Of a stretch of 64,000 nucleotides of DNA, positions 49,535 to 58,992 are shown piece after piece. Under the pieces are notes generated by a model. It was not told where the DNA came from. It worked only from the letters and a program-made list of their open reading frames with translations, and ran no database searches. The stretch lies in contig OX597822.1 in assembly GCA_951406725.2 (NCBI GenBank), forward strand, positions 72,726,001 to 72,790,000. The letters run 5' to 3'. The first letter of the stretch is position 1. Each line of letters opens with the position of its first letter. The stretch is from Octopus vulgaris. Taxonomy: Eukaryota. The translations under genes and the position numbers were made by a program.

Positions 49535-50972
49535 AATGATTAGCGTATAAAAAAATGACCATATGAAACTAATCACCTTCTTTGAAGAAAATGACTTGCT
49601 GCCTGACGCACGCCCAACATGGTTTCCGACCAGGAAGAAGCTGCTTAACTCAGCTCCTACAACACTATGACTAGGGGCTGAAACGACTGCTCAACCACTC
49701 AAATGTGGAAGTCATATAAGTCGACTTTGCAAAGGCCTTTGATAAAGTCGATCATGGAATGATATGTCACAAACTGCGTGATCTTGGCATAGTTGGAAAA
49801 TTGGGAGAATGGCTTCATGACTTTCTGAAGGATAGAAGTCAGGTGGTAGTAGCAAATGGAGCCACTTCCATTAACACGCAAATAGTGAGCGGTGTTCCGC
49901 AAGGCACTGTTTTGGGACCACTACTGTTCATAATGCCCCTTTCAGACATGCCCTCAGCCACGCAGAGAGCCACGATCACAAGTTATGCAGATGATACAAA
50001 AGTTTCACAGACAATACAGAACCCTGAAGACACTAAGCACCTGCAATGTGAGCTGGACAAAATATACAAGTGGGCTGAAAAGAATAAAATGCAGTTCAGT
50101 GCTGAAATGTTTCAAGCTTTATGCTATCAGCATGCAAAACTAAATGCAATACCCAATAAATACACTGGACCTGGATGGGATTGCAATCCCAGAGGCACAA
50201 TCAGTGCGAGACCTGGGTATTAACATGAGTGATGATGCAACATTTCATGTGCATGTTGCTAAATTGGCAATGAAATGTAGGCGGCTGACCGGATAGATTC
50301 TTAGAACCTTTAGGACAAGAGACCAGGAAACCATGATGGTCCTCTGGAGGATACTTGTCCTAAGCCACTTTGACTATTGCTCTCAGCTATGGTCACCATC
50401 CAGTGTCAAGTTAATCACAGAACTTGAGGCGATCCAACGAAGCTACACGAAGAAGATAGCCTCTGTGCAGCATATAAGCTATTGGGAAAGACTCAAGAGA
50501 TTGAGACTCTATTCCTTAGAGCGTAGGCGAGAAAGATATGCCATAATATACATCTGGAAGATCCTAGAAGGACTTGTCTCAAACTTTGGCATCGAGAGTT
50601 ACACAAATGCCAGAACTGGGCGCCACTGCATAGTACCAAGTACTCCAAATCTGCCATTAAGATGTAGGACTAGATACTGTGATAGCCTGGGCTTCCGAGG
50701 CCCACAACTCTTCAATATCCTCCCGAAGAACCTAAGAGACCTGCATTGGGTGGATGCAGATGTCTTTAAAATGAAACTGGATCTCTTTTGTCAGGTGTCC
50801 CAGATGAACCAACTTCACAACATGAGGTGCAGATGAGGGCAGCTGCATCTAACTCTCTCATGCACCAAATGGCAATTATCAAAAATGTATTCGTGAAGTA
50901 AAATCATGTAGCAACACCAAATGGCGGTGCCCCAGCATAGCCACAGCTTGTGAGCTGAAACTAGATAAAAAA
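49535..50972 (+). mobile_element. 5'-truncated CR1-group LINE: RT pseudogene and intact 3' end
   Basis: QHGFRPGRSCLTQLL, DFAKAFDKVDH, SGVPQGTVLGPLLF, YADDTK (ORF 49759-50223); LSHFDYCSQLWSP, LEAIQR, SYWERLKRLRLYSLERRR (ORF 50333-50836); stops and frameshifts; 3' stem-loop then A-rich end. Confidence 0.93.
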
Positions 50973-57716: not shown

Positions 57717-57900
<184 letters not shown>

Positions 57901-58101
57901 CAACATCACAATCAAGGAACGGCCATAATAGGCCATTCACCCACTAGAAATAACGGCCAAAGCTTCAACCGCAAAATAACATTAATTCCGCAAACCAGGA
58001 GAAAATTAAAAAACATTTACCCTGTAATTTCTTATACGATGCACCGTTTCATCTACTGTTTAATGGTAAACTAACCTGAAAATATCTGTTCCGTTCTGGC
58101 T

Positions 58102-58208
58102 ATTTCTTACTGACGAATCTAAGGGCCTATGGAAGATTGGCTTGATTTAATTTAATCAGGTTAGTTTACCATTAAACAGTAGATGAAACGGTGCATCGTA
58201 TAAGAAAT
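58102..58208 (+). ncRNA. Intact type I hammerhead ribozyme, copy 1 (predicted cleavage after 58200)
   Basis: atttctta-CTGACGA-atcta[58 nt]tagat-GAAAC-ggtgcatc-GTA-taagaaat: 8-bp stem I, 5-bp stem II base, near-palindromic stem III, GUA triplet. Confidence 0.9.
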
Positions 58209-58589
58209 TACAGGGTAAATGTTTTTTAATTTTCTCCTGGTTTGCGGAATTAATGTTATTTTGCGGTTGAAGCTTTGGCTGTTATTTCTAGTGGGTGAAT
58301 GGCCTATTATGGCCGTTCCTTGATTGTGATGTTGAACTTATAAATGGTATATGACTATTTAATTTTTTCCCACTAGGCCGCTGGTGGCAAAAAAATTCTA
58401 CAAAATTTTTTTGCCACCCTATATTGATTAATTATGAATTTTCTGGTTGATTCCGTAATGGAATCGGCGGCTTATATTTATTTGCTGCCGATAAATTTGG
58501 CGCGAGTGCGATGATTTGAAAATTTTAGGTCAGATATTGCCGAGGCAGGGACAGAAATGCCTCGTGAAAATATCTGTTCCGTTCTGGCT

Positions 58590-58696
58590 ATTTCTTACTG
58601 ACGAATCTAAGGGCCTATGGAAGATTGGCTTGATTTAATTTAATCAGGTTAGTTTACCATTAAACAGTAGATGAAACGGTGCATCGTATAAGAAAT
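58590..58696 (+). ncRNA. Intact type I hammerhead ribozyme, copy 2 (predicted cleavage after 58688)
   Basis: Identical to copy 1, 488 nt downstream. Confidence 0.9.
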
Positions 58697-58917
58697 TACA
58701 GGGTAAATGTTTTTTAATTTTCTCCTGGTTTGCGGAATTTAATGTTATTTTGCGGTTGAAGCTTTGGCTGTTATTTCTAGTGGGTGAATGGCCTATTATG
58801 GCCGTTCCTTGATTGTGATGTTGAACTTATAAATGGTATATGACTATTTAATTTTTTCCCACTAGGCCGCTGGTGGCAAAAAAATTCTACAAAATTTTTT
58901 TTGCCACCCTATATTGA

Positions 58918-58992
<75 letters not shown>

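What the first reader, a model, noticed from the sequence alone, without database searches (positions are those of the whole stretch)
58117..58184. Atypical stem II: 68-nt arm with a G-U-rich inner hairpin
Seen: atcta/tagat base, a 7x7 internal loop (agggcct / taaacag), then atgg-a-agattggcttgatt / aatcaggttagttt-a-ccat pairing with five G-U wobbles. The wobbles work only on the + strand, the same strand as the catalytic core. Stem III (acggtgcatcgt) is near-palindromic, which favours dimeric folding between the two tandem HHRs. Inference: RNA-level selection on an extra domain (tertiary contact, protein/RT binding, or avoidance of perfect dsRNA).
Basis: partly seen in the sequence, partly recalled or inferred. 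Interest (0 to 1): 0.7.

Follow-up and report, generated by a model that had tools for sequence, protein, structure and literature searches.

The report
Pseudoknot-braced long-armed hammerhead ribozyme
This is the long side arm of a predicted self-cutting RNA (hammerhead) in a protein-free jumping repeat with over a thousand copies; its fold is kept across copies, its inner loop likely base-pairs with the neighbouring stem to brace the ribozyme, and long arms turn out to be the rule, not the exception, among such motifs in this animal genome.

Summary
The arm is real: it folds as described on the + strand only (z -4.7 vs -0.75; five G·U). It is stem II of a type I hammerhead motif in a 488-bp non-coding tandem repeat with Penelope-type insertion anatomy (a retrozyme; over 1,000 motif copies). 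Selection on the fold is supported: in the inner hairpin, 8 of 8 alleles shared between insertion sites keep pairing, against 5 of 22 private ones. No arm-less lineage was found. The likely working part is the 7x7 loop. Its GGCC can pair with GGCU in stem I, survives in a sister lineage at 74-89% identity, and covaries in a more distant family (shorter arm). This mirrors pseudoknotted type III hammerheads already published. G·U richness itself is not shown to be selected: wobbles shift, one becomes A·C in the sister lineage, and other long arms have few. The arm is not atypical here: 36-66-nt arms outnumber short ones 13,425 to 1,050 in one motif class, and Rfam misses this copy. Cleavage, circles and the helper element were not shown. 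New variant of a known kind.

The parts
58117..58184 (+). Stem II arm (68 nt) of hammerhead 1
58124..58127 (+). GGCC in the 5' strand of the 7x7 loop (loop-2 equivalent); predicted pseudoknot partner
   Evidence: no shared substitution among 117 sites; kept in sister lineage; covaries in family F3
58098..58101 (+). GGCU in the 5' strand of stem I (internal loop; G58098 can alternatively pair with C58211); predicted pseudoknot partner
58129..58172 (+). Inner G·U-rich hairpin capping the loop
   Evidence: z -6.78; 8 of 8 shared alleles keep pairing
58110..58116 (+). Hammerhead core CUGACGA; position 7 (58114) varies C/U/G/A among copies
58185..58200 (+). GAAA core, near-palindromic stem III and GUA triplet; predicted cut after 58200
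   Evidence: position 17 is A or C among copies
58093..58216 (+). Whole hammerhead 1, including stem I (58102-58109/58201-58208; distal 58093-58098/58211-58216)
   Evidence: pair-keeping and two-sided changes in stem I
58581..58704 (+). Hammerhead 2, identical, 488 bp downstream; arm 58605-58672, predicted cut after 58688
   Evidence: 175 nt, 100% identical
58077..58564 (+). Full 488-bp repeat unit, no ORF inside
58565..58922 (+). Second, partial unit ending at the family's 'long' 3' end, then (TA)n
57900..58079 (-). Inverted 5'-truncated copy (of 58156-58335) ending at the 'short' 3' end, in (TA)n; holds only the 3' half of the hammerhead

Best explanation
The arm is stem II of a type I hammerhead motif in a 488-bp protein-free tandem repeat, its fold is conserved among copies, and its 7x7 loop likely pairs (GGCC with GGCU of stem I) to brace a ribozyme that is predicted to cut as a dimer. 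Shown: motif, fold, strand asymmetry, pair-preserving variation, conserved and covarying complementarity, and Penelope-type insertion anatomy. Inferred: the 7x7 loop is the usual loop 2, sitting about where the loop 1-loop 2 contact of hammerheads forms. The 3-4-bp pseudoknot replaces that contact. The G·U hairpin is a structural cap that closes the loop and keeps GGCC free, and it tolerates any pair-keeping change. Tandem transcripts would pair two stems III, cut after 58200 and 58688, and release a 488-nt monomer. That monomer would circularise and be copied into (TA)n by a Penelope-like RT/endonuclease supplied in trans.
For: Fold and strand. Inner hairpin: shared alleles 8 keep/0 break, private 5 keep/17 break, Fisher p 2.2e-4 (490 copies at 119 sites, alleles within 3 nt of a gap dropped); p 0.001-0.002 against the shared mutation spectrum and 0.028 if only transitions are assumed. 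Two-sided A-U to G-C at 58121/58180 in 10 sites. Arm length: 0 matches with 6-35 nt and 17 with 36-66 nt, none shared between independent sites by the listing, against 857 with 58-78 nt. Pseudoknot: in one subfamily 58102G and 58123C occur together in 21 sites and add a G-C pair. TGGC and GGCC persist in the sister lineage while stems I-III change. In family F3, CAGG/CCUG becomes AAGG/CCUU, and the next pair is G-C, U·G or C-G in the minority lineages. Complementarity score >=10 in 8 of 8 F1/F1b and 8 of 8 F3 representatives, against 3 of 27 other long arms and 14-29% of swapped pairs. 53 of 66 two-armed sites have one long and one short fixed 3' end. Precedent: PMC3088659 (passages); PMC7936874 (section 3.1).
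Against: No cleavage, probing or circle data. In the window's family the pseudoknot pairs are invariant, not covarying, and the helix is weak (-4.2 kcal/mol). G58098 competes with distal stem I. G58099>A occurs at 3 sites, in arrays whose other copies mostly differ. F3 covariation rests on few lineages (1 of 17 rows for C-G to A-U; the inner pair is unpaired in 13 of 17 as aligned), and F3 is only weakly linked to F1 (45 nt, E 0.003). The 16 representatives are related, not independent. The stem II base has 4 shared breaking alleles against 2 keeping. 24 of 27 other long arms lack the complementarity, so the pseudoknot does not explain long arms in general. A short-armed 353-bp repeat also spreads in this genome. 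Copy samples are biased to contigs 1-2 and to intact cores.
Confidence: 0.62

Rival explanations
1. The inner hairpin is a binding or packaging signal for the helper element's RT or a host protein, and the ribozyme merely tolerates it.
For: The hairpin sequence is more conserved than pairing alone would need in places: two G·U pairs are invariant in 31 of 31 rows. Its length is kept. Many unrelated families carry long arms.
Against: Arms of different families share no sequence, and lengths run from 34 to 78 nt. The apical part gains 10 nt in a sister subfamily. 5' breakpoints ignore the arm. A different motif near the 3' end is shared between families and is a better candidate.
Confidence: 0.17
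2. The G·U pairs are selected to keep the RNA from being perfect dsRNA, or to keep the cDNA strand from folding back; some may be fixed A-to-I edits.
For: All 31 rows keep 3-6 G·U. Longest Watson-Crick run is 5 here and 4-9 in 26 other arms. 5 of 18 pairs are G·U, against 2 of 49 elsewhere in the monomer (p 0.013). Shared alleles show A>G 21 vs T>C 14, private 19 vs 33 (p 0.048).
Against: Flux is balanced, 4 vs 4. The A>G excess is also what pair-keeping selection gives, and direction is only relative to the majority allele. As DNA, both strands fold equally weakly (-1.9 kcal/mol). Other arms are G·U-poor.
Confidence: 0.13
3. The hairpin has no role of its own. It is an old insertion in loop 2, kept paired only because an unpaired insert would misfold the ribozyme or the compact circle.
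For: The whole monomer is highly structured (z -7.8). Shared alleles keep pairing in other stems too (21 of 28). F3 has the same contact with a 41-45-nt arm.
Against: No lineage has lost the hairpin among over 1,000 motif matches, although deletions do arise.
Confidence: 0.08

Closest known systems
Metazoan non-LTR retrozymes (Cervera and de la Pena 2020, PMC7229834, parts 2-3 of 6 read; Li, Clavereau and Pollet 2026, bioRxiv 10.64898/2026.07.22.740005, abstract, methods and first part of results read)
   Same: Non-coding tandem repeat with a type I hammerhead, GC under 50%, a self-paired predicted monomer, and a link to Penelope-like elements.
   Different: The unit is 488 bp (150-450 in the 2020 paper; 51-972 in the 2026 preprint). 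Stem II is 68 nt with a predicted pseudoknot instead of a short stem with the canonical loop contact. Insertions are two-armed with two fixed 3' ends about 105 nt apart.
[quoted passage not shown]
   Same: A 5-bp stem, an internal loop carrying GCC, an extra capping hairpin, and pairing with GGC on the other stem.
   Different: Mirror image: there the extension is in helix I of a type III motif (about 20 nt). Here it is in helix II of a type I motif (44 nt), with a palindromic stem III, in a genomic retroelement.
Pseudoknotted hammerheads (Perreault et al. 2011, PMC3088659, passages read)
   Same: A stem I-stem II pseudoknot as the tertiary brace, predicted in about 40% of their hammerheads and tested by mutation.
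   Different: Their tested cases are type II motifs and the human C10 motif; no long stem II cap appears in the passages seen.
Hammerheads of Penelope-like elements (PMC4209133, parts 1-2 of 4 read; Craig et al. 2021, PMC8557442, passages and supplement parts 1-2 read)
   Same: Type I, palindromic stem III, dimer model, (TA)n targeting, inverted 5'-truncated copy and tail.
   Different: Listed Hydra-clade arms are short (loops of 3-10 nt). The longest listed are two spike-moss PLE-X motifs (loop 2 of about 30-35 nt, flagged as deviating). No coding element with this repeat's sequence was found.

Membership tests
Type I hammerhead ribozyme | CUGANGA and GAAA cores, NUH triplet, three stems, open stem I | tested here: met
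   N7 and H17 vary among copies; stems I and III show two-sided changes
Type I hammerhead ribozyme | G10.1-C11.1 pair (usual, not strict) | tested here: not met
   A-U here; G·U in 21 sites, A·C in 7, U·U in 2; G-C in part of the sister lineage
Type I hammerhead ribozyme | Match to an Rfam hammerhead model | tested here: not met
   no gathering hit in the window; no hammerhead among 13 hits at E<=10
Type I hammerhead ribozyme | Self-cleavage at the predicted site | not testable with these tools
   only contigs were available; genomic 5' starts do not pile up at the cut
Type I hammerhead ribozyme | Stem I-stem II tertiary contact | tested here: inconclusive
   conserved complementarity with covariation in a sister family; not probed
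Non-LTR retrozyme | Dispersed tandem non-coding repeat with a type I hammerhead, GC under 50% | tested here: met
   (GC 36.7%)
Non-LTR retrozyme | Highly self-paired monomer | tested here: met
   62% paired, -147.4 kcal/mol, z -7.8 over 60 shuffles; prediction only
Non-LTR retrozyme | Expressed as circular RNA | not testable with these tools
   no run on record as RNA; unit joints in contigs cannot tell circle from tandem
Non-autonomous Penelope-like element | Partial tandems, inverted 5'-truncated copy, tail at one end, microsatellite target | tested here: met
   tail about 105 nt vs 30-40 bp in PMC8557442
Non-autonomous Penelope-like element | Sequence shared with an autonomous element's pLTR | tested here: inconclusive
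   the one coding family examined (L061, L109-L111) shares none; other PLE families were not searched
SECIS element | Tandem G·A quartet stem-loop in a selenoprotein 3' UTR | tested here: not met
   no Rfam hit; no quartet by inspection (definition recalled); no ORF

The most novel reading that the evidence does not exclude
This genome holds a radiation of more than ten thousand long-armed hammerheads in many unrelated Penelope-mobilised repeats. Stem II has become a modular slot: one clade uses a capped loop to form a stem I-stem II pseudoknot that makes the dimeric ribozyme fast at cellular Mg2+, and the long imperfect arms serve as a protein-binding or dsRNA-evading domain of an abundant circular RNA class that standard models miss.
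Probability: 0.3. Interest if true: 0.72.

Novelty: new variant of a known kind. Interest (0 to 1): 0.48.

Why it matters
Penelope-type hammerheads are described as minimal, without tertiary contacts and slow (PMC4209133, PMC7761336 passages). A dimer-type motif with a pseudoknot brace gives a four-base test of whether such ribozymes can be fast without helpers. The 13:1 excess of long arms suggests that surveys built on short stem II descriptors may undercount animal hammerheads; Rfam misses this one.

Tried and rejected
SECIS and kink-turn readings: no Rfam hit, and the AG/AG bases of the loop vary between subfamilies. Arm as an RT stall or inversion hotspot: suggested by this copy's junction at 58156, rejected (25 of 168 starts vs 25.1 expected). 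Helper search: a young two-ORF Penelope-like family (811-aa frame, RVT_1 hit; Neptune-type by recalled motifs) sits next to one copy but shares no sequence, and my scan found no canonical hammerhead in it. No coding partner was seen beside 60 other hammerhead loci, except one truncated ORF next to L293. Expression: no RNA holder listed; four runs guessed to be RNA hold contigs of the unit but prove neither transcription nor editing. Tree-based direction of changes was not obtained, so shared-versus-private tallies were used. The structure string was off-register; one search replaces it. The Rfam E 4.6e-07 hit to an Enterococcus sRNA reflects the inverted repeat (34 vs 440 bits). Literature: eight searches listed no paper describing this architecture in type I animal hammerheads. 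PMC5785218 (dimeric PLE hammerheads) is not held, and the supplements of PMC7229834, PMC4209133 and the 2026 preprint were not seen; they may show long arms.

Full report
Observation. The arm at 58117-58184 is as described. It folds at -22.4 kcal/mol on + (z -4.69, 0 of 200 shuffles) and at -8.9 on - (z -0.75, 39 of 200). The five G·U pairs and all other arm pairs have probability 0.91-1.0 in the circular monomer. It lies between CUGACGA (58110-58116) and GAAA (58185-58188). Stem III and a GUA triplet follow, and stem I closes the motif as type I. Rfam finds no hammerhead.

The element. The motif sits in a 488-bp unit, here 1.7 tandem copies preceded by an inverted 180-bp copy, between (TA)n tracts. 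No ORF of 50 aa or more lies inside it. The 2.8-Gb animal genome (earlier AI notes call it octopus-like; not verified here) gave 239 DNA matches as a lower bound. Exact motif counts were 857 and 1,134, overlapping sets, controls 0. Of 190 3' ends, 88 fall at unit positions 247-258 and 85 at 351-367. 53 of 66 two-armed sites have one of each. Craig et al. describe partial tandems, an inverted 5'-truncated copy, a one-sided tail and (TA)n bias for Penelope-like elements. The repeat fits non-LTR retrozymes, which a 2026 preprint derives from PLE pLTRs. Stem III pairs with a second copy at -17.5 kcal/mol against -0.2 alone, as in the published dimer model.

Is the fold selected? I mapped 490 copies at 119 sites, a sample biased to contigs 1-2 and to intact cores. 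After dropping alleles within 3 nt of a gap, inner-hairpin alleles shared by two or more sites keep pairing in 8 of 8 cases and private ones in 5 of 22 (p 2.2e-4). Against the shared spectrum p is 0.001-0.002; if only transitions are assumed, 0.028. All eight are one-sided. The base has one two-sided change (10 sites) but also 4 shared breaking alleles. Contigs from runs of other organism labels add more pair-keeping alleles (58161, 58163, 58164), and one, 58165 T>C, whose partner was not seen. No motif has a 6-35-nt arm. Seventeen have 36-66 nt; none is shared between independent sites, and one 5-nt tip deletion is shared by the two arms of one insertion.

What the loop likely does. GGCC (58124-58127) is complementary to GGCU (58098-58101) in the stem I internal loop. 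A subfamily with 58102G and 58123C together (21 sites) extends the helix, and two sites add U·G to C-G. A sister lineage (86 matches, 74-89% identity) changes stems I, II and III but keeps both segments. In 31 aligned rows the three pseudoknot pairs are 98.8% paired but show no two-sided change. A distant family F3 (258 matches, 41-45-nt arms) has CAGG/CCUG, AAGGC/GCCUU, CAGGG/CCCUG and CAGGU/GCCUG. Two of five pairs change on both sides in 17 rows, from few lineages. All 16 F1/F1b/F3 representatives score 10 or more, against 3 of 27 other long arms and 14-29% of swapped pairs. Against this: the helix is weak (-4.2 kcal/mol), competes with distal stem I for one G, and G58099>A occurs at 3 sites. 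Perreault et al. show by mutation that such pseudoknots give fast cleavage. De la Pena et al. describe the mirror design, GCCR in a capped internal loop of helix I pairing with YGGC of loop 2, in type III motifs. An earlier AI note mentioned a base-paired brace before I recorded mine, so that agreement is not independent.

The G·U pairs. All 31 rows carry 3-6, and two are invariant. The arm is richer in them than the rest of the monomer (5 of 18 vs 2 of 49) or other long arms (34 of 437). But shared changes go both ways equally, and one wobble is A·C in 12 rows. They fix the functional strand. They are not shown to be selected as wobbles.

How unusual? With G10.1-C11.1 and an 8-nt stem III, arms of 36-66 nt give 13,425 matches (control 41) and arms of 8-35 nt give 1,050 (control 51). 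The first 30 loci hold many unrelated families. An unrelated 595-bp repeat has a 69-nt arm and the same two-ended anatomy. A 353-bp repeat spreads with a short arm, so a long arm is not needed in general. Published Hydra-clade arms are short; two spike-moss PLE-X motifs have long loops.

Mechanism, committed. Shown: motif, conserved fold, complementarity, insertion anatomy. Inferred: the pseudoknot as brace, the hairpin as cap, dimeric cleavage, circularisation, and copying by a Penelope-like enzyme in trans. The helper was not identified. Verdict: real, under selection, a new variant of a known kind; interest 0.48.

Noticed in passing
window 58273-58290; L156, L299, L305, L332, L363: A motif of about 16-18 nt (consensus like TTGRCTGYTATTTCTA) recurs upstream of the first fixed 3' end (40-52 nt in the two families measured) in otherwise unrelated hammerhead repeats; candidate recognition site for the helper RT.
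   Followed up: partly
L061, L109-L111 (e.g. G000:C6:17951460-17955860): Young two-ORF Penelope-like family (about 450-aa upstream frame, 811-aa RT/GIY-YIG-type frame intact in many of 150 scored hits), ending in (TA)n, with about 400-bp pLTR and no canonical hammerhead found by my scan.
   Followed up: partly
L141-L160: Unrelated 595-bp repeat with a 69-nt stem II and two fixed 3' ends about 95-100 nt apart. Its arm contains a stretch complementary to the 5' strand of stem I, a possible inactive alternative fold (by eye).
   Followed up: partly
L344, L348-L361, L368-L370: 353-bp tandem repeat with a short canonical-looking stem II and 8-nt palindromic stem III; the commonest short-armed hammerhead among the first 100 listed.
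   Followed up: no
L253-L278 (sister lineage): A subfamily carries a 10-nt insertion in the apical part of the arm (77-78 nt), so the tip is free to grow.
   Followed up: partly
L145:1290-1330: 3' end of another Penelope-like element with a short minimal hammerhead whose core begins with U instead of C.
   Followed up: no
window 58109, 58129: A>G letters in contigs of runs guessed to be RNA (58109 in three, 58129 in two), not shared among my genomic sites; editing or an unsampled subfamily cannot be told apart.
   Followed up: no
window 49720-50836: Two ORF fragments of a non-LTR retrotransposon reverse transcriptase (by recalled motifs).
   Followed up: no
window 58383-58418: A 15-17-bp hairpin just before the long 3' end of the unit.
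   Followed up: no
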